A stretch of DNA of 64,000 nt from Ostreococcus lucimarinus (GCA_000092065.1 CP000593.1), one strand, 5' to 3'. Counted from the stretch's first letter, positions 4,602 through 16,943 are shown. Notes: a model not told the origin generated them from the letters alone. A program made the numbers and translations.

Positions 4602-6011
4602 CTACTGCGCCTCGGCTATGCCGCGAACGATGCCGTTCGCGTGCGCCAAGCCGGTGACGATGACGCACGTGACGACTTCGTCGTCGTCTTCATCAATCCG
4701 CGGCGCTTGCGACGCCTCGACGCTCGCGCTCGCGAGTAAATACCCAGCCGGATGTGTCTCTAACGCGTGCACGTCGCACTCGTCCATTCCTTCGATCCAA
4801 ACCTCCAATTTCCGAGCCTTTGTCGTCGGGCGCTCGCCCTCCACCACGCGCGTCACTCGTGCGCGGCGCATGGAATCCTCAACGGCCACGGTTCCAGTAC
4901 GTCGAGCCGCATCGCCTAGAATCTCAAAGCAAGAACTACTCACGTAATGTCTCGCGCGCCCGAGTAAACACCCGAGCTCGGCGCCCACGAGGGATCCGCC
5001 ATTCGCTTCCGCGAGCGAGTCCATGAGCGCTAGCCAACGCGGCTCCCACAAGTTCAGCCTTCTCGTTTCGCCCCGTTTCAGCGGACGTTTCAGCGTGAAG
5101 CACGGCACCGCGCCAGCATCACTCGGGGTGAATGTTTGCATGCTCTTCTTCGTCGCCGACGGATCGGTGGAAAACCCAAATCGCACGCGGCGTACCCGCC
5201 CTCGAGCGATGCCCGAGCACACGTCGACGGCGTTCAACGCGTTGGCGCACAACACCTCGTCTCTTTCCATCCACAGCGTCTCCACGAGCGGGCAAAATAA
5301 TAAAAGCGCAAGGAACACGCCGACTGCGTCCACGAGACCGTTCTCCGCTCCGTTCGGCATCGCCAAGCTCGCCAACGTCGCCGCGACGAACGCCGCCGCC
5401 GGTCCCGCGAGCGGCGTCAGATTTCTCGGCTCGTCCATGAGAGCTCTCGCCACGTCCGCCGCGGCGAGCGCGCCATCGCTCGAAACACCCACGGATCCAC
5501 CATCCCACGCGTTTTTCACGTACGCCAACACCGTTTTCCACCGTTCGATCGCGAAAGGGTTCGTCCCGAACGCGCGAGCCGCCAACGCCTCGCCTATACC
5601 TCTCGCCCGCACGTCCCCGTACACCGTCAGCGCGTCCTCGCGCTCTGATTCGATGATACCGGTCAACAAATCGCTCCCGTATTCGGAATCGTCGATCACG
5701 CGCGCGCGTTCGACGAAGCTCGCGACGAGGGCGTCGGCGCGCTCTTGGTCGAGCTCGAGCACCACAGCCTGCGGTTTCGCGCGTCGTATGACCCGTCGAA
5801 CGTCTGCCGCCGCCGCCGCGCTCGCGTGGGAGGTACCGACGACGTAGAATTCGCACTGCGTCGCGCGGGAGGGTCGAGAGACGTCGAGTTTGAGGCTTTT
5901 TGAGACGAATCCCGTGCCGGGAGGGAGCCAGGTCGGGACGGCGGCGCCCGACGACGACGACGACGACGACGGGACGTCCGGGACGACGACGCGCACGCAC
6001 GCGGCGCGCAT
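4602..6011 (-). CDS. TraB-family protein with a C-terminal LON substrate-binding (LON-N, PUA-like) domain
   Basis: ATG at 6009-6011. TraB motifs are present (FYVVGTSHASAAAAADVRRVIRRAKPQAVVLELDQERADAL ... LWMERDEVL). The C-terminal 150 aa (PCFTLKRPLKRGETRRLNLWEPRWLALMD ... VTRVVEGERP) resemble the N-terminal domain of Lon protease. Confidence 0.6.
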   Translation of the reverse strand: MRAACVRVVVPDVPSSSSSSSGAAVPTWLPPGTGFVSKSLKLDVSRPSRATQCEFYVVGTSHASAAAAADVRRVIRRAKPQAVVLELDQERADALVASFVERARVIDDSEYGSDLLTGIIESEREDALTVYGDVRARGIGEALAARAFGTNPFAIERWKTVLAYVKNAWDGGSVGVSSDGALAAADVARALMDEPRNLTPLAGPAAAFVAATLASLAMPNGAENGLVDAVGVFLALLLFCPLVETLWMERDEVLCANALNAVDVCSGIARGRVRRVRFGFSTDPSATKKSMQTFTPSDAGAVPCFTLKRPLKRGETRRLNLWEPRWLALMDSLAEANGGSLVGAELGCLLGRARHYVSSSCFEILGDAARRTGTVAVEDSMRRARVTRVVEGERPTTKARKLEVWIEGMDECDVHALETHPAGYLLASASVEASQAPRIDEDDDEVVTCVIVTGLAHANGIVRGIAEAQ

Positions 6012-6176
6012 GGCGATCGACGCCGACGTCGGGCGCCTCGCGCGCGTCGCGACGTGAAGTTTGGGTCGGTTCTCTGTGTGTGACGTAGCAATTTGTCTAT
6101 TCTACCCGACGGGAGGGACGACGACGACGACGCGGGCGGCCTACCTCGCTTCACCGCGGCCGCGATCGCGCGGCTT

Positions 6177-9100
6177 TCACTTTTCCATCCTTGCCGCTCG
6201 TTTCTTTTTAGCCTTCTCTTCCTCTCGAGCGAGTTTCAACGACCTGGACGCGACGAAGCCTTCAAACGTCAAATCGCCCGTCTTCGCGATCGCCTCCTCG
6301 TCCGAATCGATGTCGTCGTCGGTGTCGTCTTGCGCGAGGATTTGCCTGCCATCGCGCCACTTTAACGTGGACTTTCGGTTGTCGATGCCGATGATCTTGG
6401 CCGTGACGTCGCGGCGAGTCTCGTCTTCTTCTTCTGACGAATATTCGGCCGTTTGCAAACGGTCGCCGGTGTCGGTGTCAAACAGCTCTCGACTTTGATC
6501 GTGGACGTTGCGAGCGACGAAAACATCGCTCCAAAATTGACGCCACACCGCATCGCCGGAGAGCGTACACGTGCGCTTATTGATGATGATCATCGCTTGC
6601 AAGATGAAACCGTATCGCTCGTCGATGGTGACGTTAATCTTCGGGGGCGTTCCTTTCCACTTTTTGACGTCGATGGGCTCGGTCCAGCCGTATTTCACCA
6701 CGCGACGGTTGTTCTCCTCCTTAAAAGCCGTCGACTCCACGTTGCGCGTCGCGATGAATCGCCGCCATCGCGACAAATGAATGGGTTTATTGAGTGTGAG
6801 CTTTTTCGTCTCCACGCTGCAATGCATGTAGGCCAAGTAGCGCATCAAATAAACAATTCCACCGCCCAACGCCGACCACGCGAGCATGTTCAAGATGAAC
6901 CAAACCGCGGGAACATTCACTATGTACGGCTGCACCGCTTCGACGGCCCATCGAATCTCGGTGAACGAAAGGTATTGCCCCGTGAATCGATCGAGAATGT
7001 CAAACGCGAGCGTCCCCGACAAAATCACTTGCGTCACCTCGAGCGTGGTGCTGTTGCGCGCCTGCGCTCGGAAAGCATCCTCTAAGTTTTTCGTCGTCCC
7101 TTCTATCGCCTCGTTGATGCGGAGCTTTCTTCGTGAGCCGATGACGGCGTTCATTTCTCGCAGAGACTCGAGATCGTTGACGCACGCCGCGATGACTTTT
7201 TCCAAGTCAACGGCGCGTCTTTGCAAGCGTTTCCACGACGGTTCCAACTGAAACAAGTCGTACAACACTTGCGACGCGCCGTCGCTCATATCCGCGCTCA
7301 ACTTTTCACGAGACGTGTCGACGTTTTCGAGCGACTCGAGCACGAACTGCTGAGTGGCGCTCAAGATCGTCACCGTCGTCGTGTGATCGGCGAGGCGCGA
7401 ACGAATGCGCGTTACGTTCGTCGGATCGATCTGATAGGTTTCAATCAACGCTCGCGTCTTCTTCAACTCGTCGTTCAGCGCGAAACAACTGCTGAAGACA
7501 CTTTTGATGAACAACGAGCGAGCTTGGAACGCTGAATATGTCGCGAGAAGCTTGTGATGACGTTCGGTGCGCGGACCAAAGACGACGACACCGCGTGAAC
7601 CAAAGACGATGACTTCTTGTTCGTTCAGGTCGTACGCGTAAAACGTCGCGCCGATGACTTGCTTGAGCTCGTTTTCGTTATCTTCACCATCCATGTACGC
7701 CGCGGCTTTCAGTTTTGGCGTCGCGCGCTCGGCGATGATGCACGTAAACTTGTCGCGATTGTCCGGCTCGCCCTTGTATGTGATGTTCAACATGGAGCGC
7801 TGACGCTCGGAAAATAAATTTCCCACCAGCGAGCTCGTGTCTTCGTGGACGTCGGAAAGTAAGCGCGCGAGTAAATCGACGCTGATATCGTTTCGAATTC
7901 GATCGGCGATGCCGTTGACGACGATGCCGTAAGTGATGGCGCCGTTTTCCCGAAAGTTGATGCCGAAAACCTCGATTTGCTGCTGCACCAAGTTACTCTT
8001 GGGCGCCCCGGTGGCGAGCAAGTCTGCCTCGACGTTTACGAATCGCGTTTCGTCGACGTCGAGGACTTTTAGCTCGGTTTTATTGTCGGCGTTGATCCCG
8101 ACCACCATGTTGAATTCGTCCTGCGTCGCGCTCGCTTCCGCGGTGAACATACCGCCCGCGACGCGGTCTCCCGTGCCGAGTTTTCTACAGAAAGAAACCA
8201 TTTCGTTCGATCCCATCGGCACGTATTCGGTGACGATGATTTTCACCGAGTCGAGCAAGATACTTTCACTCAGGCGCGGGTCGCGAATATCGCGACTACT
8301 TTGAACGGCGCCGCCGAGCACGCGTTTTGCCTTTTTGTGCCCGTTCAACGCGTTCGGTGTGAACGCATCGGAGCTCAGCATGTGCGGAGGGATGTACGGA
8401 GACGAGACGTACGGCACGTCTTCGACGTCCGTGATGGTGGAGCGGATGCGGACCCCGATCGAGGGGACGGTGAGGAAAAAATCCGAGGACTCGCGGTCGT
8501 ACCGCACCTCGAGGAGGTGACCAGCTTCGTGCACCAACGAATCTACCGACTGGCGCATCGCGCTCGTGAACCGTCCCGAGGCCGTCATCCTCTGCAAGAA
8601 TTCGCTCCCCTTCTTGGAAATCTTCAACAACGTCGAGTGATCGTACGTCTCGCTCGTCACCTTGAGCGCCGTGATGAAACCAAGCTCACGCAAATCGTCT
8701 AAATCGTCTCGTCCCTCTTCCGAGACGTTCAAATACCTCGGACACGCTCCAAATATCTTTTCTGATTTTGGCGCGTAATCGTAATCGAACACCGCGTTTC
8801 GCACGATGCCCTCGTACACGAGCACCAGGAGCGGCAGCTCGCGAATCCAGGGAGAACGTTTGTTGTTGTTGTTGTTGGAAACCGCAGACTTCGACTTCGA
8901 CTGTTTCTGAGACGCGTCGGTGTACAAACTCAGCATGTACAACAATTTCAACGCCTCGGGCGATTCCTCCATCTCCCGCTCGCGCGACTCGACTTCCCGC
9001 CGACGCCGAGTCGTGGACGAGGCGGAAGTGCTCGAGTCGGCGTCTGAAGCGCTCGAGTCCCGGGCGTCCCGGGCGTAGTGCGAAGAATCATCGTCATCAT

Positions 9101-9227
9101 CGTCATCGTCGACGCGAATCGTTGCGTCCGAATCCGAATCGTAGCCCTGCGGCGCCCCGCATTCCGCGCACGTCGCCGCGCCGCCGCGCACGACGGCCCG
9201 GCACGTCGCGCACCGCGTCGAATCCAT
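6177..9227 (-). CDS. Large hypothetical protein with an N-terminal C4 zinc ribbon (C-x2-C-x10-C-x2-C), an acidic tract and a C-terminal TM segment
   Basis: Continuous 1000-aa ORF; the first ATG is at 9225-9227 (MDSTRCATCRAVVRGGAATCAECG). The track start at 9236 is GTG. No confident family assignment. Confidence 0.5.
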   Translation of the reverse strand: MDSTRCATCRAVVRGGAATCAECGAPQGYDSDSDATIRVDDDDDDDDSSHYARDARDSSASDADSSTSASSTTRRRREVESREREMEESPEALKLLYMLSLYTDASQKQSKSKSAVSNNNNNKRSPWIRELPLLVLVYEGIVRNAVFDYDYAPKSEKIFGACPRYLNVSEEGRDDLDDLRELGFITALKVTSETYDHSTLLKISKKGSEFLQRMTASGRFTSAMRQSVDSLVHEAGHLLEVRYDRESSDFFLTVPSIGVRIRSTITDVEDVPYVSSPYIPPHMLSSDAFTPNALNGHKKAKRVLGGAVQSSRDIRDPRLSESILLDSVKIIVTEYVPMGSNEMVSFCRKLGTGDRVAGGMFTAEASATQDEFNMVVGINADNKTELKVLDVDETRFVNVEADLLATGAPKSNLVQQQIEVFGINFRENGAITYGIVVNGIADRIRNDISVDLLARLLSDVHEDTSSLVGNLFSERQRSMLNITYKGEPDNRDKFTCIIAERATPKLKAAAYMDGEDNENELKQVIGATFYAYDLNEQEVIVFGSRGVVVFGPRTERHHKLLATYSAFQARSLFIKSVFSSCFALNDELKKTRALIETYQIDPTNVTRIRSRLADHTTTVTILSATQQFVLESLENVDTSREKLSADMSDGASQVLYDLFQLEPSWKRLQRRAVDLEKVIAACVNDLESLREMNAVIGSRRKLRINEAIEGTTKNLEDAFRAQARNSTTLEVTQVILSGTLAFDILDRFTGQYLSFTEIRWAVEAVQPYIVNVPAVWFILNMLAWSALGGGIVYLMRYLAYMHCSVETKKLTLNKPIHLSRWRRFIATRNVESTAFKEENNRRVVKYGWTEPIDVKKWKGTPPKINVTIDERYGFILQAMIIINKRTCTLSGDAVWRQFWSDVFVARNVHDQSRELFDTDTGDRLQTAEYSSEEEDETRRDVTAKIIGIDNRKSTLKWRDGRQILAQDDTDDDIDSDEEAIAKTGDLTFEGFVASRSLKLAREEEKAKKKRAARMEK

Positions 9228-9483
9228 CGTATCCACCGATGGATTCGACCGCGGAGTGACGACGAACGAACGAACGCGCGAAAACCACCGACGTCCTCGC
9301 CCGAGCCCTCAACCTGTAACATTCGCGATCGCGGATCGACGGCGTCAAGCCGCGAAGATCTGTCGCAAACCCACCATCGAGCGACGTATAATACCAATTA
9401 TTCGTCCACCTCGCCGAGTTAAGCCTCGAAATAAAGAGCATGGGCAGTCGAATGTCCGCGATGTTGTGCGTATGCATAAACAG

Positions 9484-9597
9484 TCTTCCTTAACTCAGCT
9501 GGTAGAGTGTCAGACTGTTAGGAAAAAGTCTCCGTCGAATATGACGGCTGCTCCGATAGAGATCTGGAAGCCGCGGGATCGAAACCCGCAGGAAGAG
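9484..9597 (+). tRNA. tRNA-Asn(GTT)-like sequence with a 41-nt intron-like insert; more likely the SINE head than a functional tRNA gene
   Basis: Cloverleaf as described above. A functional gene is less likely because the downstream 130 bp are shared with the second copy, which lacks the 5' acceptor stem. Confidence 0.3.
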
Positions 9598-9725
9598 ATG
9601 TGTCGACATCAAACCTTACTTTTTCCCATACCCGATTGTCCGTGATGGAAAAGCGACACGACAACACTGTGACTTTCGTCGTTTCGGGGTGACGGATAGT
9701 ACTTTAAAAAATTTATCGCTATGAG
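9484..9725 (+). mobile_element. tRNA-Asn(GTT)-derived SINE-like element, full-length copy: tRNA-like head at 9484-9597 plus a roughly 130-bp tail
   Basis: The head folds as a tRNA: acceptor tcttcct/aggaaga, D-arm actc-agctggta-gagt, anticodon stem tcaga/tctgg with loop ctGTTa, T-arm gcggg-atcgaaa-cccgc, and a 41-nt insertion at the canonical intron site. Positions 9498-9725 are about 98% identical to 15433-15660, including roughly 130 bp beyond the tRNA-like part. Confidence 0.6.
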
Positions 9726-9840
9726 TAATAAAAATAAACTTTTTTTTTGAGTTGGGGCACCCCAACATGATAAAACCGCACATCGACGTTGATGTACCGC
9801 ATGTAAGATTTCTCCAGAACCAATCGTGTGAGTGAAGTGG

Positions 9841-10338
9841 TCAAGCCAAGCCGCGTAACTCATCTACCGTAAATTGATACTTGTCGAGACTGCGCTTCGA
9901 AGGCAGCGTGCCGCGCGCTCGGGCATTCTTGAGGCACGTCTTGCGCAGTATTCCTTTTGCGTGCTGCTTGTAATAATTGAGTTGTCTGTAGTTACCATCG
10001 CCGCCGTCCCGCTTCGGCGTATATTGAGCTCTGCTGTAGGCTGGACTCTCGTCCACGTTCTCGCGGCACGCGTGTTTCTGGCTGCGTCCAGCAGCTCGGG
10101 AGTTGAATAAGCCGTCACGCTTCTCTCTCATGTAGGCACCTTTACGTTGATGGAGCTCTCCAGCTGGAATGTCCTTTTCGAGAACTCTCACGTCCGCGTC
10201 GCCAAACGTGAAGATTGGATGTCGTGCGTATTTATGCGAGGCAAGGCGCGCTCTGAGCGAACCCGTCGTCGATCCGATGTACGTTTTGTTACATTTCGCA
10301 TTATCGCTAAACATTTCGTACACGCATCCCGACGGCAT
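9841..10338 (-). CDS. Small GIY-YIG nuclease-domain protein
   Basis: ATG at 10336-10338. N-terminus CVYEMFSDNAKCNKTYIGSTTGSLRARLASHKY matches the GIY-(10)-YIG...R...H catalytic motif. It lies in an AT-rich island next to the SINE copy. Confidence 0.6.
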   Translation of the reverse strand: MPSGCVYEMFSDNAKCNKTYIGSTTGSLRARLASHKYARHPIFTFGDADVRVLEKDIPAGELHQRKGAYMREKRDGLFNSRAAGRSQKHACRENVDESPAYSRAQYTPKRDGGDGNYRQLNYYKQHAKGILRKTCLKNARARGTLPSKRSLDKYQFTVDELRGLA

Positions 10339-10516
10339 TTGTCCTGGTTACCTATCTATCCCTAAGAAAATATTGTTGCCAAAAGTGCCTCCTCCTGCGG
10401 TTTGCAGTCACATCCGAGAGACCATAGGTACGCGTATCGCTGCGTGGGCTGCAAGGTCCGGAATGTAGATACCGAACCGCCTGATTTCACACCTGGACGT
10501 TCGTGATCCGTCGAGA

Positions 10517-10707
10517 CCTGACGAAATGACGAACTTGTTTTGTCGTCCACAAATTCGTCAACCCGTCGTTCGGTGACACTTTGTGTGTACCAATGATGAA
10601 AATGACGAAATGTTAAAATATTTTAATGTTTATTTTTATTTTAGATCTATGACAAGCAACAGTGTGGACCTTTATGAAAACAGTTCGTCATTCGTCATTT
10701 CGTCAGG
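10517..10707. repeat. MITE-like element or hairpin: terminal inverted repeats of about 18-25 bp (cctgacgaaatgacgaac ... gttcgtcattcgtcatttcgtcagg) flanking a roughly 150-bp AT-rich core
   Basis: The reverse complement of the right arm matches the left arm; the arms contain an internal gacgaat tandem. Confidence 0.45.
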
Positions 10708-11169
10708 ATCCAAACCATGGTCTTTTTGGTGTCTCGTTGAGTCTTCATATTGCAAATGTACGAATTACAAAATTAGTATGAGCACCAGACGACCGCCGGC
10801 GCGAGCTCCGTCTCCCCTGTGTACCCATTGTCCTTCAGCCACTCGAAGCACCCGTCGCGGTGAATTTCCCAATAGACGCCCTTCTCGTCTCTACCTTGCC
10901 TCAGGTGGTCCTCTTCCATTGGGACCCTGTGGCCCTTTTCCTTCTTGAAGAAGTCCTTGAGCTTATTGCCGACCTTCGTCGCGCTATCTTGACCGCGCGC
11001 AGCCGCTGGCAACCACGTCTGGTATTCGATGAAGATGTCACTGTGTGCATAAAAATGACTTGCGCTCACATCGGTGTGGGCTCACTATAAAGGACAAGCT
11101 TACATGTCGGAAGAGTTGCCCGAGTCCACATCTCCACCCTGTTCCGCTTCAGTGTCACCTAGAAAGACA

Positions 11170-12810
11170 TCAGACTAAGCCGTCGTTTTGAGAGGGCGCC
11201 GACTTTGCCTTTGGTTTTGCCTTCGACTTTGAAGTGGGTTGCGGCCTGATCTCCTCTTCGATCTCCTCGTCGTCGACCAAATCTTCGTCGATTTCTTCGT
11301 CGTCTTCGTCATCGACTTCGTCGTCTTCGTCTTCGTCGTCTTCGTCTAGAAAGACATCACCCATGACTGCTCTCCAGCCATCAGAACCCATTTCGAATTC
11401 TTCGTCGGTCAAGAGGCAAGAGTCCAACGTTGATTGAATTTCATCGTATTTAAGATCCTTGCCAATGAACACCAGTTCTTGTCGGCGATCACCATAAGGC
11501 CCCTCCCAGTCTTTACGAAGTTCTTGCTTTATCCCCTGTGAGCCGACCCAAGCATTTTTATTCAGCGCGGTCCATCGGCTTGATCCTTCGAGAGAGTAAA
11601 TATTACCAGCCTGACTGAAAACAATTATCAAGTCGTGGGCATCACTGAGCCACGTTACACCCTTCGAACGTAGCAGCACACCAATTTCACCTTCCCTTTT
11701 ACGGCGCTTGAGTTTCATCGCTTCTTGTCGCGCTCGAATATCTTTCACTGCACTCCAGTCTACACTTGGTGTCTCTTCATCTTTTTCTTCATCACGGTCA
11801 TCGGCCTCGAGGGAGCTGAAGAAGCGCTCGACAAATGAGCCTAAAAACCGTTTGGGATGAAAAGGTCTTCTGGCTCGGTAAATGAAAGACGTAATACCGA
11901 ACCGACTATCGTGACGTGTTTGGGAAGAACTTGGTGCAAGCGTGACCTCGCTTAAGGCTGTTTCTCTCATGCGAGCTCGCTTACAGCATGGAGACTCACC
12001 TTTGTCCCTAGCGCCGGCGCAGCATGACTTCACAGATGTTGCTTCTATCTCTTGTTCCCATGTTATGAAACCAGCAAAGTCATTCTCTTTGTAAAGTTTT
12101 GTATTGACGATTCGCGTAACGTCGATCGCGCCGTTCACAGCTTCAAGAATATCAGCACGTGAATTGAGAAGTTGTATCTGCGCTTTAATCTCGGCGAGTT
12201 GTTCGTCATCGACAGTGTCGACCTTGTTCAATACGACGACATTCGCGTACTCTATCTGTTCAGCCAACAATTGAGAGTAAGACTGCCTGTTCACAGCTGA
12301 CGCCCTGAAAGAATCAATCATGTCGAGAAAGTCACCTGCAGCGATGACCGTCACGCACGTATCCAGCCGCGCCAGTGTGCTCAAATGTTCATGCTCATCA
12401 ACGTGCGCAGCTTCATGATCGTGATCGTCCTCACAATTTGCGAAGAGTTTCGCAATTTCCGCCGGTTCCGACACTCCTGATGCCTCTACGATCATGTAGT
12501 CAAAATTGCCACTCTTGGCCATGTCCCCGATTTGTTTTACAAAGTCTCCGCTCAACGAACAGCACACGCATCCGTTCTGCATGGCAACCACCTCGTCGCT
12601 CTGCAGCAAAGCGGAATCATCGATTAATTTTTTGTCGATGTTCAACTCCGCGACGTCGTTCACGACGACGGCACACCGAAACTTTCCGTTCGCGTCTCGC
12701 TTAGCTTCGAGCACGCGTTTCAGAGTTGTCGTCTTCCCAGCGCCGAGGAACCCGCACAGCGTTGTCACCGGCAATCGATTATGATTGGCGATTGCGGCGG
12801 GTGTGGACAT
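11170..12810 (-). CDS. COG0523 / CobW-domain GTPase (zinc metallochaperone, ZNG1/CBWD-like) with a His-rich segment and an acidic C-terminal tail
   Basis: P-loop GFLGAGKTT and NKVD; His-rich CEDDHDHEAAHVDEHEH; CobW C-terminal domain; poly-D/E tail. The track start at 12915 is GTG; the first ATG is at 12808-12810 (MSTPAAIANHNRLPVTTLCGFLGAGKTT). Confidence 0.85.
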   Translation of the reverse strand: MSTPAAIANHNRLPVTTLCGFLGAGKTTTLKRVLEAKRDANGKFRCAVVVNDVAELNIDKKLIDDSALLQSDEVVAMQNGCVCCSLSGDFVKQIGDMAKSGNFDYMIVEASGVSEPAEIAKLFANCEDDHDHEAAHVDEHEHLSTLARLDTCVTVIAAGDFLDMIDSFRASAVNRQSYSQLLAEQIEYANVVVLNKVDTVDDEQLAEIKAQIQLLNSRADILEAVNGAIDVTRIVNTKLYKENDFAGFITWEQEIEATSVKSCCAGARDKGESPCCKRARMRETALSEVTLAPSSSQTRHDSRFGITSFIYRARRPFHPKRFLGSFVERFFSSLEADDRDEEKDEETPSVDWSAVKDIRARQEAMKLKRRKREGEIGVLLRSKGVTWLSDAHDLIIVFSQAGNIYSLEGSSRWTALNKNAWVGSQGIKQELRKDWEGPYGDRRQELVFIGKDLKYDEIQSTLDSCLLTDEEFEMGSDGWRAVMGDVFLDEDDEDEDDEVDDEDDEEIDEDLVDDEEIEEEIRPQPTSKSKAKPKAKSAPSQNDGLV

Positions 12811-12986
12811 GATGTACGGCGATCGACGTCTCCGCGCGCGAACGAGCCGAAGAGGCGTCGCGAAGTGCGGCGATGCGCGCGCGTCGTGCACGTGTCGACG
12901 ATTCGCGTCGTGCACGTGTCGAGGATCGTCGTACGCGACGCCCCGCGAAGCCCATCACGGATCGCGTCGCGACGCGCGTCGTAAAC

Positions 12987-13143
12987 ATGTCGACACGCAT
13001 GTCGACATATTTACCCACGCGCGTGTACGCATTGAACCCCGTGATGCATCTATATACGAAAAACGTCTCGACGCACATGTCGACATATTTCGACATATCC
13101 AAGTACCACCGAGATGTGTCGACACTGCGGCGGATGTCGACAT
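12987..13143. promoter_or_regulatory. Cluster of five perfect 10-bp palindromes RTGTCGACAY (ZDRE-like zinc-deficiency response elements) plus one half-site, in the promoter shared by the COG0523 and ZIP genes
   Basis: ATGTCGACAC at 12987-12996; ATGTCGACAT at 12999-13008; ATGTCGACAT at 13077-13086; half-site TCGACAT at 13090-13096; GTGTCGACAC at 13116-13125; ATGTCGACAT at 13134-13143. All lie between the CobW ATG (12810, minus) and the ZIP ATG (13273 or 13369, plus). Confidence 0.6.
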
Positions 13144-13272
13144 TTTGTCGTTCGCGAGTCGTGACTTATAAACGACCGCCCTCCATCGCGCCGGTTCGGT
13201 TCGTATGCCGCTTTAGTTTGTGCGCAGCCGCACTTACCGACGCCGGCGAAGACGACGACGACGACGGAAACG

Positions 13273-14802
13273 ATGACGAACGAAAACACGAAGAACACGA
13301 AGACGACGATGCCGCCGCGCGAACGCGCACGCGGTGCGAGGACGGTCGAGCGACGACGAGGGCGAACGATGCGCTGCGCGAGCGCGCTCGGTGGTGGCAT
13401 CGCGATCGTCGCGAGCGCGCTCGCGCAGCGCGGCGCGCACGCGTCCGGCGCGCACGCATTCGAATGGGCTGGAATCTTTGAGACGCCAGAGAATGAATAC
13501 GTGTGGCAGGCGCAAAAGGTGGCCGATAAGTACGCCGCCGATACCATGAAAATGGTCATCTACGACGAAATCGCCGCCGGACACGACGAGCTCGAAGCCC
13601 GCGAGGATAGCGGTGATACCGCAATCGGGGGAGCTTGTACGACGGCTAAGATACGAGATAGTGTTTTGACACCTGATAGTGGGTGTGTCAACCTTGAATT
13701 TGACAACACCTGGCACACGACGCCGTTTAAGATTAATACGACTGGCATCGACGCGATCTCAATCTTCGCTGAGCACGTTCCCACCGAGTTCGAGCGCGAC
13801 GCGCACTATCTCAAGGACCTCCACGGAGATGACGTGGTGCCAAAAGCTTCACTTCCCGAAGCATCCACCGTGAGCGAATCGAAATCAAAACCGTGGGCCA
13901 ACGCCATTGGGGCGGCAATTATCGTCAATATCGTCACACTTTCTGGTGTGGTCTTTCTCATCCCGAGTATCGCTAAGAAGCAGAAAGCGTACCCTGAAAC
14001 TGTGAGTTGCACAATTAACTCGTTTGCCGCCGGCGCACTTCTTTCGGCTGCGTTTTATCTGATGTTCTACGAAGCCACGCATTTAATCAAACCTGCTGGC
14101 TCGGATGAGGCAGAGCAGACCGCATGGTGGGCTTCCGCTTCTATCTTCGGCTTTCTCATGGCCTACTTCATCGACTTTGGTATCTCTGTCGTGTTCCCAA
14201 CTCTTGGAAATACAGCGAAGACAACCGATGCGGAACTTGCAGTCAAAGGCGCTCAAGATGACTGTGATACTTGTACTTGTAACTCACACAAGTATCGCGT
14301 TCGAAGTGGTATCATTCTTGGAGATTTCATGCACAACCTAGTGGATGGTATTTTCATTGGCTTCGGCTTTCTGAACTGCGACAGTACCATGGGATGGTCG
14401 ATCACCGCCGCGACCGTCTATCACGAAATCGCTCAAGAGCTTGCTGACTACTTGGTGCTCGTAGACCCCTTCCAGGGCGATCTCGCGCCGTTGCCGACGC
14501 TGACTTTAAACTTCGTTTCCGGCTTGAGTGTCATTCTTGGCGTCCTCATTAGTGTTGGATCGGGAAATAACAACGACTTCTGGCATGGACTGCTGCTCGC
14601 CTTCGGTGCTGGAGTCTATCTGCAAATCGCCGCCGCAGAGTGCATGCCCCGAGTATCAGTGAGCGCCACTTCACCTCGTCTTCGCGCGACGAGCATTCTC
14701 ACCTTCATCGTCGGCGTTGTTGCCATCAGTCTCGTGCTCCTCAACCACAAGCATTGCACAGGCGGTGGCGGTGGCGGAGACTCACACGCACACGCGCACT
14801 AA
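13273..14802 (+). CDS. ZIP-family (Zrt/Irt-like) metal transporter
   Basis: ZIP signature in TM helices (GDFMHNLVDGIFIG ... YHEIAQELADYLVL). ATG at 13273; an alternative ATG at 13369 gives a signal-peptide-like start MRCASALGGGIAIVASALAQRGAHA. Confidence 0.85.
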   Translation: MTNENTKNTKTTMPPRERARGARTVERRRGRTMRCASALGGGIAIVASALAQRGAHASGAHAFEWAGIFETPENEYVWQAQKVADKYAADTMKMVIYDEIAAGHDELEAREDSGDTAIGGACTTAKIRDSVLTPDSGCVNLEFDNTWHTTPFKINTTGIDAISIFAEHVPTEFERDAHYLKDLHGDDVVPKASLPEASTVSESKSKPWANAIGAAIIVNIVTLSGVVFLIPSIAKKQKAYPETVSCTINSFAAGALLSAAFYLMFYEATHLIKPAGSDEAEQTAWWASASIFGFLMAYFIDFGISVVFPTLGNTAKTTDAELAVKGAQDDCDTCTCNSHKYRVRSGIILGDFMHNLVDGIFIGFGFLNCDSTMGWSITAATVYHEIAQELADYLVLVDPFQGDLAPLPTLTLNFVSGLSVILGVLISVGSGNNNDFWHGLLLAFGAGVYLQIAAAECMPRVSVSATSPRLRATSILTFIVGVVAISLVLLNHKHCTGGGGGGDSHAHAH

Positions 14803-15026
14803 TGAGAGCGGTAAAAAAATGTCAATTACTATCAAATCAAGTTGTGGCAAACACACCCACGGCCACTGACGGAGATCTATTTTTCAAGCTAGAGGATCAT
14901 ATAAATTGTAAATCGAAACGCTCTTCGTAATTTACGGCACCTGTTCCTCGATCTCCTGGCGAACATCGATGAATTATTTCGATAAGATGTCCCAGATGTT
15001 ACCCACACCACGGTACTTGTGAAGCT

Positions 15027-15369
15027 TAATCCAGATACGCGCGCACGCCTTTCTGAAGCATGGTCGGTACCTCGGCTTTCAACTTGTCTGGGAGCGTCGC
15101 GTCGGCGTCCTTGACCTCGCGCAGAAAATCGAGCACCCTATTGGTGGAGAACTGTCAGGGAAGGATCCAAGGTGGCGGCATTTGATACACAGGTTGCGCC
15201 AGGCTTTGTTAGACAGCAACGGACTCGATTTTACATCATCCGCCAGTATTGCAATTCCTACACGCTTCCCATTTAGCCAGTGCTTGGGCTCCTCGAATTG
15301 GTCTGTTTCGGGATTATACAGACTGAGCATCTCTGGGGTCAAATACTCGTCCCACACGGAGGCGTTCAT
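15027..15369 (-). CDS. Small hypothetical protein, tentative two-exon model
   Basis: Exon 1 runs from the ATG at 15369 (MNASVWDEYLTPEMLSLYNPETDQFEEPKHWLNGKRVGIAILADD). A putative GTAAAA donor, TCTAAC branch and pyrimidine-rich ...ccttccctgacag acceptor join it to exon 2, FSTNRVLDFLREVKDADATLPDKLKAEVPTMLQKGVRAYLD*. Unspliced, the frame reads into a low-complexity tail. Weak model. Confidence 0.25.
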
Positions 15370-15432
15370 CAGGTGCCCATCGAGTTCCTTGTATTGCTTC
15401 AATCTCGTCGCGGTATCTCTGTAAACAATTTT

Positions 15433-15660
15433 GCTGGTAGAGTGTCAGACTGTTAGGAAAAAGTCTCCGTCGAATATGACGGCTGCTCCGATAGAGATCT
15501 GGAAGCCGCGGGATCGAAACCCGCAGGAAGAGATGTGTCGACATCACACCTTACTTTTTCCCACACCCGATTGTCCGTGATGGAAAAGCGACACGACAAC
15601 ACTGTGACTTTCGTCGTTTCGGGGTGACGGATAGTACTTTAAAAAATTTATCGCTGTGAG
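15433..15660 (+). mobile_element. Second, 5'-truncated copy of the tRNA-Asn-derived SINE-like element
   Basis: About 98% identical to 9498-9725 (two to three substitutions). It lacks the 5' acceptor stem and part of the D-arm, as expected for a 5'-truncated retroposed copy, and sits between the JmjC gene's 3' end and a small gene. Confidence 0.6.
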
Positions 15661-15770
15661 ATTCACCCCCATGGGGGGAGCTCGGCTTCCCTGATTTTTT
15701 TGTCACTTTTTCACGACGCCGCGAACCCCTCGTCCCGAACTCCGAGACGCGACGCGAGACATCCATCCCA

Positions 15771-16943
15771 TCACACGAGTCGCCCCCCCGCGAGATAATC
15801 GGCGACTCGCACGACGCGCGCGTTCGCGTCGAACGCGCCCGCGTGGACGTCGTCGTCGCCCGCCGCGAGCGCGGCGCCTTCGTCGTCGAAATCCACCTCG
15901 TCGAGCGCTCGGTAGCTCTCCATCAACGCGGGATCTTTGGCGGCCATGAGCTTTAAATCTTCCAACACGCGGTCCAGATTGACGTCGTCGACGAAGTTTC
16001 CCGCGAACGCCACCGTGCAATCGAGGTTTCGAACGGCGTGCGGCGAGCCGCCCGGCACGAAAAGCACCTCGCCCGGGCCAAGATCGACGTCCCATCGGCG
16101 CGCGCCGAATTCACGCGGGAGCGGTAACATTCCCATCTCTTCTTGTTCCTCCAACGGTGGCATCGCGGGATCGAGCGTGCCGCGCGACCAGCTCGGCCGT
16201 AAAAACGCGAGCGATTCGCGCGAGAAGACGGTCCATCGCTTCGTGCCGCGCACCACGGCCATGAAAAAGTGCCCCTGCCACTGATCGACGTGCAGGGACG
16301 ATCGCGTGTTCTTCGCGGCGACAAACAAGCTCGGCCACGACCGTGAAAATGCCGTCAATCGCATCGTGCGCTGCATGTAATCGTGTGCCACGTACGCCGG
16401 TACGCGCACGCTCTCCGACAACGACGGCAGCTTGAGCGGAATCGACGTGTCGTACAAGTAACTCCCCGCCCCTCGATCGTCCACGACTTCCGCGAAAAAG
16501 TCCTTTAAATCCAAAACGTCCGTCACCTCGCACGACAGCGTCGCGCGTCGGTGACCATCCTTCCTCGTGACGGCGACTTTTTTATTCCCGGCGCGCCGCG
16601 TCAACCACGCGCACGTCTCGCCGTCCGCGCCGTCCTCCGTCAGCGCGCTCCCGAGCCCCTCGATCACGACCGGGGTATCCGTGGCGACGTATTCGAGTCG
16701 AAAACGTCGCGGCGTGAGATCGCGCGCGTGCACGCGCGCGACGTCGCGTCCCGTCGTCGTCGGTTTTTCGACACCCGAATCTGCGGCGGCGGCGGCGGCG
16801 AGCGTCGCGCGCGCGCGCTCGACGCGCGCGACGATCGCGTCGACGTACGCGCGACGACCGTCGTCGGTCTCTCGGGCAGCGCGCGCGGCGAGATCGGCGC
16901 GCTCGACGTCGAGGCGCGCGATCTCTTCGTCGAAAAGCGTCAT
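15771..16943 (-). CDS. JmjC (cupin-like) domain protein
   Basis: ATG at 16941-16943. JmjC core: WQGHFFMAVVRGTKRWTVFS ... EVLFVPGGSPHAVRNLDCTVAFAGNF. Confidence 0.7.
   Translation of the reverse strand: MTLFDEEIARLDVERADLAARAARETDDGRRAYVDAIVARVERARATLAAAAAADSGVEKPTTTGRDVARVHARDLTPRRFRLEYVATDTPVVIEGLGSALTEDGADGETCAWLTRRAGNKKVAVTRKDGHRRATLSCEVTDVLDLKDFFAEVVDDRGAGSYLYDTSIPLKLPSLSESVRVPAYVAHDYMQRTMRLTAFSRSWPSLFVAAKNTRSSLHVDQWQGHFFMAVVRGTKRWTVFSRESLAFLRPSWSRGTLDPAMPPLEEQEEMGMLPLPREFGARRWDVDLGPGEVLFVPGGSPHAVRNLDCTVAFAGNFVDDVNLDRVLEDLKLMAAKDPALMESYRALDEVDFDDEGAALAAGDDDVHAGAFDANARVVRVADYLAGGRLV

What the first reader, a model, noticed from the sequence alone, without database searches (positions are those of the whole stretch)
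11170..14802. Candidate zinc-deficiency module: COG0523 zinc chaperone and ZIP transporter transcribed divergently from a promoter with five ZDRE palindromes
The 460-560 bp between the CobW/COG0523 GTPase (minus) and the ZIP permease (plus) holds five perfect copies of RTGTCGACAY plus a half-site, at 12987-13143. This 10-mer is the Arabidopsis zinc-deficiency response element bound by bZIP19/23 in ZIP-gene promoters. COG0523 (ZNG1/ZCP) and ZIP/ZRT genes are the classical zinc-deficiency-induced pair in algae and plants. Finding both genes on one shared, ZDRE-dense bidirectional promoter suggests a compact zinc-homeostasis regulon and an F-group bZIP regulator in this organism.
Basis: partly seen in the sequence, partly recalled or inferred. 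Interest (0 to 1): 0.85.

Follow-up and report, generated by a model that had tools for sequence, protein, structure and literature searches.

The report
Plant zinc-deficiency DNA element in Ostreococcus
A marine green alga reported to lack the land-plant zinc-deficiency switch carries five perfect copies of that switch's DNA element in front of a zinc transporter, and its relatives encode a matching bZIP regulator right beside it, so the circuit may be far older than land plants.

Summary
Five perfect RTGTCGACAY palindromes lie at 12987-13143, between a COG0523 GTPase (minus strand) and a ZIP permease (plus strand). Chance predicts 0.43 copies in the whole 64 kb window. The window is Ostreococcus lucimarinus CCE9901, the alga in which Castro et al. 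(2017) found no F-bZIP.

The elements are conserved. All six Ostreococcus lineages sampled keep at least two perfect copies upstream of the orthologous ZIP, while the flanking DNA has diverged. A more distant relative keeps two upstream of a second ZIP.

In most lineages, including O. tauri, the divergent neighbour of the ZIP is a small bZIP gene. Its five base-contacting residues (N..AV..YR) match the signature found in all ~135 land-plant F-bZIPs fetched. It lacks their N-terminal Cys/His zinc-sensor motif and instead has an invariant C-terminal H...CPC motif. That bZIP is missing from the window. Near-identical metagenomic contigs encode a paralogue (bZIP2).

Published O. tauri RNA-seq shows the COG0523-bZIP-ZIP trio co-induced under long-term low iron. 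No zinc-limitation data exist, so the metal is unresolved.

Verdict: this is a real, conserved metal-deficiency cis/trans module. It works like ZDRE/F-bZIP, but membership in the F-bZIP family is unproven.

The parts
11170..12810 (-). COG0523 (CobW-family) GTPase, 546 aa, ZigA-like. It has a CxCC motif (GCVCC) and a His-rich stretch (EDDHDHEAAHVDEHEH).
   Evidence: Pfam cobW and CobW_C. The best NCBIfam match is ZigA zinc metallochaperone at 288 bits, below the equivalog cutoff of 600. The best PDB match is YjiA. Motifs were read from the translation. It is a different paralogue from the O. tauri cluster cobW (29.6% identity).
12833..12836 (.). Rearrangement breakpoint. To the right, the sequence is shared at 99% with contigs L014/L015, where a second ZIP gene (ZIP2) occupies the place of the COG0523 gene.
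   Evidence: The blastn alignment of L014 starts at window 12833.
12881..12922 (+). Two copies of GCGTCGTGCACGTGTCGA spaced 24 bp apart. Each has a CACGTG G-box fused to a degenerate ZDRE half (GTGTCGAC).
   Evidence: Read from the sequence. Also present in the ZIP2 promoter of L134.
12987..12996 (.). ZDRE-like palindrome 1, ATGTCGACAC (distal group)
12999..13008 (.). ZDRE-like palindrome 2, ATGTCGACAT. It lies 12 bp from palindrome 1, the same spacing as the O. tauri triplet, and starts a ~78-bp repeat unit.
13077..13086 (.). ZDRE-like palindrome 3, ATGTCGACAT, at the start of the second (truncated) 78-bp unit
13087..13096 (.). One-mismatch copy, ATTTCGACAT
13116..13125 (.). ZDRE-like palindrome 4, GTGTCGACAC. 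It is the first of the proximal pair, and its core is invariant in the six-lineage alignment.
13134..13143 (.). ZDRE-like palindrome 5, ATGTCGACAT. It is the second of the proximal pair. The 18-bp spacing is kept in the window and in L001, L005, L008 and L010.
13156..13167 (.). Second conserved element, GAGTCGTGACTT (consensus GAGTCRTGACYC). It is present in 5 of 6 lineages, and its function is unknown.
13375..14802 (+). ZIP-family permease ZIP1, 475 aa from the ATG that matches the O. tauri annotation (an upstream in-frame ATG lies at 13273). It is the orthologue of O. tauri ostta06g02310.
   Evidence: Pfam Zip. 85.5% nucleotide identity to the O. tauri ZIP. CDS lengths match the ostta06g02290/02300/02310 trio.

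Best explanation
The five RTGTCGACAY palindromes are binding sites for a homodimeric bZIP transcription factor from a family so far found only in Ostreococcus and a few related marine contigs. The family has two paralogues: bZIP1 (O. tauri ostta06g02300) and bZIP2. The factor switches on metal-acquisition genes when the cell runs short of a divalent metal, most likely zinc. The targets are the ZIP1 and ZIP2 permeases, COG0523 metallochaperones and the factor's own gene.

In O. lucimarinus the array sits in a 565-bp divergent promoter and has two parts. The proximal pair (13116 and 13134, 18 bp apart) is the ancient ZIP1 module. The distal three sites come from the ZIP2 promoter, which grows by tandem duplication of a ~78-bp unit. 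A rearrangement placed a ZigA-like COG0523 gene against that promoter, so both genes can now be driven from one array.

Shown:
- the sites and their conservation;
- linkage to the bZIP genes;
- base-contact residues identical to those of F-bZIPs;
- co-induction of the O. tauri trio under metal limitation.

Inferred:
- that this bZIP binds the sites;
- that zinc is the signal;
- that the invariant C-terminal H...CPC motif is the metal sensor;
- that the COG0523 gene is actually co-regulated.
For: 1. Enrichment. Five sites fall within 157 bp, against 0.43 expected per 64 kb.

2. Phylogenetic footprint. All six Ostreococcus lineages sampled keep 2-5 perfect sites about 330 bp upstream of the same ZIP1 coding anchor, although ZIP1 nucleotide identity is only 78-90%. 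Spacing is 18 bp, or 12 bp in the O. tauri group. The GTGTCGACA core is invariant while mean column identity is 59%. A more distant relative (L016-18) has two sites upstream of ZIP2. L134 and L030 show ZIP2 with its own four sites.

3. Linkage to a regulator. The order is ZIP1, then ZDREs, then a divergent bZIP1 in O. tauri chromosome 6 and in L001, L005/6, L008/9, L010 and L011/12. A cobW gene follows the bZIP in L001, L007 and L011. bZIP2 lies beside ZIP2 in L014, L134 and L016.

4. DNA-contact residues. All type-1 and type-2 proteins read N[RK]xAV[RK]RYR. All ~135 land-plant F-bZIPs fetched read N[RK]EAV[RK]KYR. In both, the five canonical base-contacting positions are N, A, V, Y, R. ATF4-like proteins have AA in place of AV. 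BLASTP of the O. tauri bZIP against AtbZIP19 gives 35% identity over 79 aa, E = 2e-11.

5. Possible sensor. H, C, P and C of the C-terminal motif are invariant across both paralogues. One lineage extends it to HDDGCPCPGHHSHHG.

6. Expression. In Lelandais et al. 2016 (PMC4855317, Additional file 4), after one week in low-iron versus high-iron Aquil medium, ostta06g02290 (cobW) rises 10-17 fold and ostta06g02310 (ZIP) 3-6 fold. ostta06g02300 (bZIP) rises 2.5-4 fold at three of four time points.

7. Zinc link of the cargo genes. The window's COG0523 is ZigA-like. COG0523 and ZIP genes are zinc-deficiency markers in Chlamydomonas and in diatoms.
Against: - There are no binding data and no zinc-limitation expression data for any of these algae.
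- The only transcriptome shows induction by iron limitation, in a condition where about 1,200 genes (roughly 15% of the genome) go up.
- The window itself has no bZIP gene. bZIP2 is assigned to this species only through metagenomic contigs about 99% identical to the window.
- By whole-domain score the algal bZIPs are as close to animal ATF4 as to F-bZIPs.
- Haplotype L003 keeps the COG0523 gene but has lost the three distal sites, so COG0523 regulation by the array is not a fixed feature.
- I could not scan a whole genome for the motif.
Confidence: 0.6

Rival explanations
1. The cis/trans module is the same, but the physiological signal is iron limitation, or general divalent-metal limitation, rather than zinc. 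On this reading ZIP1 is an Fe(II)/Mn-type importer and the element resembles the plant ZDRE in sequence only.
For: The O. tauri trio is induced after one week at 54 nM versus 1080 nM FeEDTA. Lelandais et al. class ostta06g02310 as iron-regulated. In L005/L006 a ferric reductase lies 1.8 kb downstream of ZIP1.
Against: - Short-term iron removal with DFOB hardly changes the three genes (values, columns defined), which points to an indirect effect.
- About 1,200 genes rise in the long-term condition.
- The window's COG0523 is closest to the zinc chaperone ZigA.
- The L005 neighbourhood also holds an SBP_bac_5 protein, the family of the diatom Zn/Co-responsive protein ZCRP-B.
- The same paper reports strong zinc-iron cross-talk in O. 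tauri.
Confidence: 0.2
2. The sites are bound by a different factor, for example a larger protein like P0297 that has true F-bZIP features and is encoded elsewhere. The small linked bZIPs would then be regulated targets rather than the regulator.
For: P0297 comes from a marine metagenome. It has two basic regions, GNR[AE]AVRRYREKKKA, that are nearly identical to the F-bZIP basic region. It also has Cys/His-rich stretches resembling the zinc-sensor motif. ZDREs lying directly upstream of the small bZIP genes fit either autoregulation or a target role.
Against: - P0297 has a single member and an unknown organism, and there is no ZDRE in its 13-kb contig.
- No Ostreococcus homologue turned up in the exhaustive profile search.
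- The small bZIPs themselves carry the N..AV..YR contact signature.
- They are physically linked to the arrays across rearrangements in at least seven contexts.
Confidence: 0.1
3. The palindromes have no regulatory function. They would be by-products of tandem duplication of a ~78-bp unit, or repeat or recombination signals at a rearrangement hotspot.
For: The distal sites ride on a 78-89-bp tandem unit whose copy number varies. The locus is highly rearranged, with three or four alternative left flanks. Unrelated metagenomic DNA contains many tandem TGTCGACA arrays that are plain satellites.
Against: - The proximal pair is not part of the tandem unit.
- It is conserved, with perfect 10-mers and fixed spacing, in lineages whose flanking non-coding DNA no longer aligns.
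- In the O. tauri group the arrays have a different architecture (12-bp spacing) yet the same 10-mer.
- Arrays occur at two different ZIP genes.
- Mutated copies appear only at the tRNA-flank repeat, not at ZIP promoters.
Confidence: 0.07

Closest known systems
Arabidopsis and other land-plant bZIP19/bZIP23 (F-bZIP) with the ZDRE zinc-deficiency regulon
   Same: - The 10-bp element RTGTCGACAY is identical.
- It occurs in multiple copies in ZIP-transporter promoters.
- A bZIP with the same five base-contact residues (N..AV..YR) is associated with it.
- The associated bZIP carries a conserved Cys/His motif.
   Different: - The algal bZIPs are shorter (164-265 aa).
- They lack the N-terminal CxHTHTC...HTHTCxH zinc-sensor motif and instead have a C-terminal FL..[FY][FL].H...CPC motif.
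- They are encoded next to their targets.
- COG0523 genes are part of the module.
- The literature places F-bZIPs in land plants only (PMC5476651, PMC9643250).
- Orthology is unresolved.
Chlamydomonas zinc-deficiency response (ZRT/ZIP transporters and COG0523 ZCP1/ZCP2)
   Same: It is a green alga, and the same two protein families are induced together under zinc deficiency (PMC2770081).
   Different: In Chlamydomonas neither the regulator nor the cis-element is known, and the genes are not reported as a cluster. Here a candidate element and a candidate regulator are visible in the DNA, but there are no zinc expression data.
Bacterial Zur regulons (Zur box, ZigA/COG0523, zinc importer)
   Same: A palindromic operator, a ZigA-like COG0523 gene and a zinc importer lie close together, often in divergent orientation.
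   Different: The bacterial regulator is a Fur-family repressor rather than a bZIP, and the operator sequence and logic are unrelated. The similarity is in layout only.
Diatom ZCRP-A (COG0523) and ZCRP-B (NikA-like) Zn/Co-responsive proteins
   Same: They are marine phytoplankton proteins in which a COG0523 family member responds to Zn/Co scarcity. One Ostreococcus lineage has an SBP_bac_5 (ZCRP-B family) gene near ZIP1.
   Different: No cis-element or regulator is known in diatoms. Homology of the Ostreococcus proteins to ZCRP-A/B was not tested beyond Pfam family.
Animal ATF4/ATF5 bZIPs
   Same: They give the best solved-structure match (1ci6_A, E = 9.5e-5) and bit scores similar to or higher than F-bZIPs. 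The O. tauri gene is annotated 'ATF4/5'.
   Different: ATF4 has N..AA..YR rather than AV. It binds CARE/CRE half-sites as a heterodimer and has no link to metals. The resemblance is probably generic to the bZIP domain.

Membership tests
ZDRE (zinc deficiency response element) | 10-bp imperfect palindrome RTGTCGACAY | tested here: met
   The window has five exact matches. Every orthologous ZIP1 promoter has 2-5 exact matches. The consensus is taken from PMC5476651.
ZDRE (zinc deficiency response element) | Located in promoters of ZIP transporter genes, often in more than one copy | tested here: met
   The sites lie 232-388 bp upstream of the ZIP1 ATG. They are conserved upstream of ZIP1 in six lineages and upstream of ZIP2 in L016, L030 and L134.
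ZDRE (zinc deficiency response element) | Bound by F-bZIP dimers and confers induction under zinc deficiency | not testable with these tools
   This needs EMSA or DAP-seq and zinc-limitation expression data. The only transcriptome available is for iron limitation.
F-group bZIP (bZIP19/23/24 type) | bZIP domain with the group-specific basic region N[RK]EAV[RK]KYREKKK (base contacts N, A, V, Y, R) | tested here: met
   The algal types 1 and 2 read N[RK]xAV[RK]RYRxRxR. All ~135 fetched land-plant F-bZIPs read N[RK]EAV[RK]KYR. The five contact positions are identical, but the flanking residues differ (RERKR versus EKKKA). That these five positions contact the bases comes from my knowledge of GCN4 and C/EBP structures.
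F-group bZIP (bZIP19/23/24 type) | Cys/His-rich zinc-sensor motif (CxHTHTCNPPGP...HTHTCxHxH) N-terminal to the basic region | tested here: not met
   It is absent from all type-1 and type-2 sequences (alignments A2 and A4). The F-bZIP profile aligns only the bZIP domain. A different, C-terminal H...CPC motif is invariant instead.
F-group bZIP (bZIP19/23/24 type) | Closer to F-bZIPs than to any other bZIP group (orthology) | tested here: inconclusive
   The algal profile scores F-bZIPs at 16-37 bits and ATF4-like proteins at 35-48 bits. The F profile scores algal type 2 at about 25 bits, type 1 at 13-24 and ATF4-like proteins at 10-23. The best hit outside the family is the F-like P0297 at 52 bits. 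The domain is too short to decide without a broad phylogeny.
COG0523 zinc metallochaperone (ZigA/ZNG1 type) | G3E GTPase domain plus CobW_C domain, CxCC motif and His-rich stretch | tested here: met
   PF02492 and PF07683. GCVCC and EDDHDHEAAHVDEHEH are visible in the translation.
COG0523 zinc metallochaperone (ZigA/ZNG1 type) | Reaches the NCBIfam ZigA equivalog cutoff | tested here: not met
   NF038288 scores 288 bits against a cutoff of 600. It is still by far the best model, with CobW next at 97 bits. The protein is ZigA-like but not an equivalog. ZNG1 orthology was not tested.
ZIP (Zrt/Irt-like) permease | Pfam Zip domain above the gathering score | tested here: met
   PF02535 scores 77.7 bits against a cutoff of 35.1. 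Metal specificity cannot be tested here.

The most novel reading that the evidence does not exclude
The ZDRE/bZIP metal-deficiency circuit predates land plants. On this reading the small Ostreococcus-type bZIPs, together with the P0297-like proteins, descend from the same ancestor as the F-bZIPs. They already recognised RTGTCGACAY in ZIP promoters in the common ancestor of chlorophytes and streptophytes, and they sense the metal through a different module, the C-terminal H...CPC motif. This would overturn the view that the F-bZIP/ZDRE system arose with the move to land. It would also identify the first zinc-responsive transcription factor in a green alga.
Probability: 0.35. Interest if true: 0.88.

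Novelty: new variant of a known kind. Interest (0 to 1): 0.78.

Why it matters
Zinc limits phytoplankton growth in parts of the ocean, yet no zinc-responsive transcription factor or cis-element is known in any alga. As of 2009 the regulators were reported unknown in Chlamydomonas (PMC2770081), and I found no later report.

The plant literature states that the F-bZIP/ZDRE system is confined to land plants. It cites O. lucimarinus, the organism of this window, as lacking it (PMC5476651, PMC9643250).

The data here supply three things:
- a concrete element;
- a concrete candidate regulator (O. tauri ostta06g02300 and its paralogue);
- a three-gene test set in a genetically tractable alga.

The evolutionary question (ancient origin or convergence) and the physiological question (zinc or iron) can therefore both be tested directly. 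The locus also shows a metal-responsive promoter module being moved between genes by rearrangement (ZIP1, ZIP2, two different COG0523 paralogues and the bZIP).

Tried and rejected
- **bZIP in the window.** tblastn with both bZIP types against the 64 kb found nothing, so the regulator is not encoded here.
- **Exact-sequence look-up of the 509-aa ZIP ORF.** Not on record. The species was identified instead through the JmjC neighbour.
- **The extra sites at 9600 and 15535 as further regulon members.** Rejected. They are one duplicated tRNA-flank repeat and are mutated in near-identical contigs.
- **Metagenome-wide scan for tandem ZDRE pairs to define the regulon.** Of the 120 loci, 117 were unrelated soil or freshwater sequences or satellites. 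Only L030, L050 and L134 were informative.
- **Settling F-bZIP orthology by profile scores.** Inconclusive.
- **Treating the O. tauri cluster cobW and the window cobW as orthologues.** Rejected. They share 29.6% identity and have different best NCBIfam models.
- **Weak Rfam hit BTH_s1 over the array.** It scores 24 bits against a gathering score of 74, so I dismissed it as chance.
- **Single site at L005 5648.** It has no clear gene assignment and I did not pursue it.
- **Structure prediction of the bZIP C-terminus.** Not run. The alignment is shallow and AlphaFold does not model metals, so it would not decide anything.


Full report
**1. The observation**

The sequence holds RTGTCGACAY at 12987, 12999, 13077, 13116 and 13134, plus a one-mismatch copy at 13087. 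Shuffles predict 0.43 copies in 64 kb, and the window has seven. A CobW/COG0523 GTPase lies at 11170-12810 on the minus strand. A ZIP permease runs to 14802 on the plus strand, starting at 13273 or, by comparison with the O. tauri annotation, at 13375. The intergenic region is 463-565 bp.

The other two copies, at 9600 and 15535, are not independent. Both lie in a 228-bp direct repeat (9498-9725 and 15433-15660, 99% identical). That repeat is the 3' part of an intron-containing tRNA gene plus its flank. In near-identical contigs the second copy reads GTGTCAACAT. I treat both as incidental.

**2. The organism**

The JmjC protein encoded at 15771-16943 exactly matches XP_001421140.1 / XP_001422815.1 of Ostreococcus lucimarinus CCE9901. 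The ZIP coding sequence is 85.5% identical in nucleotides to that of O. tauri chromosome 6.

This identification matters. Castro et al. 2017 searched O. lucimarinus and Chlamydomonas, found no F-bZIP, and concluded that the family arose in land plants. A 2022 review repeats that conclusion. The same paper gives RTGTCGACAY as the ZDRE consensus.

**3. Conservation of the element**

I fetched the orthologous ZIP locus from O. tauri and from metagenomic contigs of five further Ostreococcus lineages. ZIP1 nucleotide identity to the window in these loci is 78-90%.

- Every lineage has 2-5 perfect 10-mers about 330 bp upstream of the same coding anchor.
- Spacing is 18 bp in the window, L001, L005, L008 and L010.
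- In the O. tauri group the sites form tandem runs 12 bp apart. The window's first two sites have the same 12-bp spacing.
- In a six-lineage alignment the GTGTCGACA core is invariant, while mean column identity is 59%.
- A second element, GAGTCRTGACYC, follows about 13-30 bp downstream in five of the six lineages. Its role is unknown.
- In the first 15 fetched Ostreococcus loci (about 210 kb), every TGTCGACA lies in the intergenic DNA of these genes, except two isolated single sites.
- A more distant relative (L016-18, 62.5% GC) has two sites upstream of a second ZIP gene, ZIP2.

**4. A linked regulator**

In O. tauri the gene order is ZIP1 (minus strand), then three ZDREs, then a bZIP (plus), then a cobW (plus). 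The same ZIP1-ZDRE-bZIP arrangement is found in L001, L005/6, L008/9, L010 and L011/12. In L011 a cobW and a second ZIP follow.

The bZIP family has two paralogues:
- Type 1 lies next to ZIP1.
- Type 2 lies next to ZIP2 in L014, L134 and L016.

Three features are invariant across both types:
- the basic region N[RK]xAV[RK]RYRxRxR;
- an ELxH..W.L segment after the zipper;
- a C-terminal FL...H...CPC motif, extended in one lineage to HDDGCPCPGHHSHHG.

The window contains no member of the family. The ZigA-like COG0523 gene occupies the position that the bZIP or ZIP2 holds elsewhere.

**5. Relation to F-bZIPs**

I fetched about 135 land-plant F-bZIPs, including Arabidopsis bZIP19 (P0349).

- All of them read N[RK]EAV[RK]KYR, so the five canonical base-contacting positions are N, A, V, Y, R.
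- All algal type-1 and type-2 proteins have the same five residues.
- ATF4-like proteins, the best match among solved structures, have AA instead of AV. C/EBP has S instead of Y.
- BLASTP of the O. tauri bZIP against AtbZIP19 gives 35% identity over 79 residues.

Whole-domain scores do not place the algal family closer to F-bZIPs than to ATF4. The N-terminal Cys/His zinc-sensor motif that defines F-bZIPs is absent.

An exhaustive profile search of 1.84 billion representative proteins found only 44 hits. The best hit outside the family was P0297, a 762-aa protein from a marine metagenome. It has two F-like basic regions (GNR[AE]AVRRYREKKKA) and Cys/His-rich stretches that resemble the sensor motif.

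I conclude that the algal system works like ZDRE/F-bZIP. Membership in the F group fails on one defining feature and is unresolved on another.

**6. Architecture and rearrangement**

To the right of window position ~12833 the sequence is 99% identical to contigs L014 and L015. Those contigs carry bZIP2 and ZIP2 on the left in place of the COG0523 block.

L134 and L030 show ZIP2 with the same distal promoter facing an unrelated 216-aa ORF and a light-harvesting-complex (LHC) gene. Their ZDREs ride on a 78-89-bp tandem unit.

L003 keeps the COG0523 gene (99.9% identical) and the proximal ZDRE pair. AT-rich DNA replaces its three distal sites.

The five-site array is therefore composite. The proximal pair is the old ZIP1 module. 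The distal three sites belong to a ZIP2-type promoter, to which the COG0523 gene is now fused 23 bp upstream of its ATG.

The JmjC protein has two accessions in CCE9901, so the two arrangements may be paralogous loci of a segmental duplication rather than alleles.

The cobW in the O. tauri cluster is a different paralogue, YjiA-like, with 29.6% identity to the window's. Two different COG0523 genes have thus been recruited next to the array independently.

**7. Expression evidence**

The CDS lengths of the L007 genes (1296, 630 and 1422 nt) match ostta06g02290 (CobW-like), ostta06g02300 ('ATF4/5' bZIP) and ostta06g02310 (ZIP).

Lelandais et al. 2016 grew cells for one week in Aquil medium at 54 versus 1080 nM FeEDTA. 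Column meanings come and conditions. Reads per kb at the four time points were:

| Gene | Low Fe / high Fe at the four time points |
|---|---|
| cobW (ostta06g02290) | 110/9.6, 157/15, 135/16, 235/13 |
| ZIP (ostta06g02310) | 7.8/1.9, 18.6/5.3, 13.5/4.0, 19.1/3.3 |
| bZIP (ostta06g02300) | 32/7.5, 93/31, 195/229, 74/30 |

Short-term iron chelation had little effect. The trio is therefore co-regulated by metal status, but the metal tested was iron, and about 1,200 genes respond in that condition. No zinc-limitation transcriptome for these algae was found.

The case for zinc rests on three points:
- the element's identity to the plant ZDRE;
- the ZigA-like COG0523;
- the known zinc or Zn/Co responsiveness of COG0523 and ZIP proteins in Chlamydomonas and diatoms.

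**8. Literature and novelty**

Full-text searches found no report of a ZDRE, or of an F-like bZIP regulon, in any alga. The O. tauri genes are annotated, but the array and its link to the plant element appear to be undescribed in the library searched.

I rate this a new variant of a known kind. The cis-element and the bZIP contact signature are the same. The lineage, the sensor motif and the clustering of regulator with targets are different.

**9. Verdict**

- I am confident (about 0.85) that the palindromes are a functional, conserved cis-element of a metal-acquisition gene set.
- I am fairly confident (about 0.7) that the linked bZIP family reads them.
- I am less confident (about 0.6) that zinc is the signal.
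- Common descent with the land-plant system remains open (about 0.35-0.45).

Noticed in passing
window 9484-9597 (+); repeats 9498-9725 and 15433-15660: Rfam finds an intron-containing tRNA gene here (49 bits) that ARAGORN misses. Its 3' part and flank are duplicated 5.9 kb downstream as a 228-bp direct repeat. The two copies bracket the GIY-YIG ORF, cobW, the ZDRE array and ZIP1. In L013 and L014 the second copy carries an 87-bp insertion that looks like an intron (GTAAG...CAG).
   Followed up: partly
window ~6000-16000: This block is 50-55% GC in a ~62-66% GC context. It contains a 1019-aa ORF (6177-9236, minus strand; MJ1566_N/MJ1567 in the precomputed Pfam hits) and a weak GIY-YIG-like ORF (9841-10338, minus strand). 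The latter is 96.6% identical to L008 2243-2917, although ZIP1 in L008 is only 81% identical. This may be mobile or recently exchanged DNA.
   Followed up: partly
window 13156-13167; L001 9790-9801; L007 ~9864-9875: A second conserved, partly palindromic element, GAGTCRTGACYC, contains TGACTC-like half-sites. It lies just downstream of the proximal ZDRE pair in five of six lineages. It could be a second bZIP site or a core-promoter element.
   Followed up: no
window 12881-12898 and 12905-12922: A direct repeat of GCGTCGTGCACGTGTCGA lies beside the cobW start. Each copy contains a CACGTG G-box. The repeat is shared with the ZIP2 promoter in L014 and L134.
   Followed up: no
L019 10001-12289 (protein P0297): This 762-aa protein from a marine metagenome has two bZIP domains whose basic regions are almost identical to the land-plant F-bZIP basic region. 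It also has Cys/His-rich stretches (HTVTCGHLAHGHACHEV, CVHAHHTCGE, CWHVH) resembling the F-bZIP zinc-sensor motif. It may be an algal F-bZIP. The organism is unknown.
   Followed up: partly
L005 5817-10471 (also L006): In one Ostreococcus lineage the ZIP1 neighbourhood also holds a ferric reductase and an SBP_bac_5 (NikA-like) protein. SBP_bac_5 is the family of the diatom Zn/Co-responsive protein ZCRP-B. There is no ZDRE between them.
   Followed up: partly
window 15771-16943 (-): The JmjC protein has two separate O. lucimarinus CCE9901 accessions on two contigs. This suggests that the ZIP1-JmjC-carrier-P450 block is segmentally duplicated in that genome.
   Followed up: no
L020-L139 (metagenome scan): Many soil metagenome contigs at about 60% GC carry a pair of RTGTCGACAY sites exactly 12 bp apart. 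They are probably an unrelated bacterial operator family. Several eukaryote-like contigs carry the 10-mer within satellite arrays.
   Followed up: no
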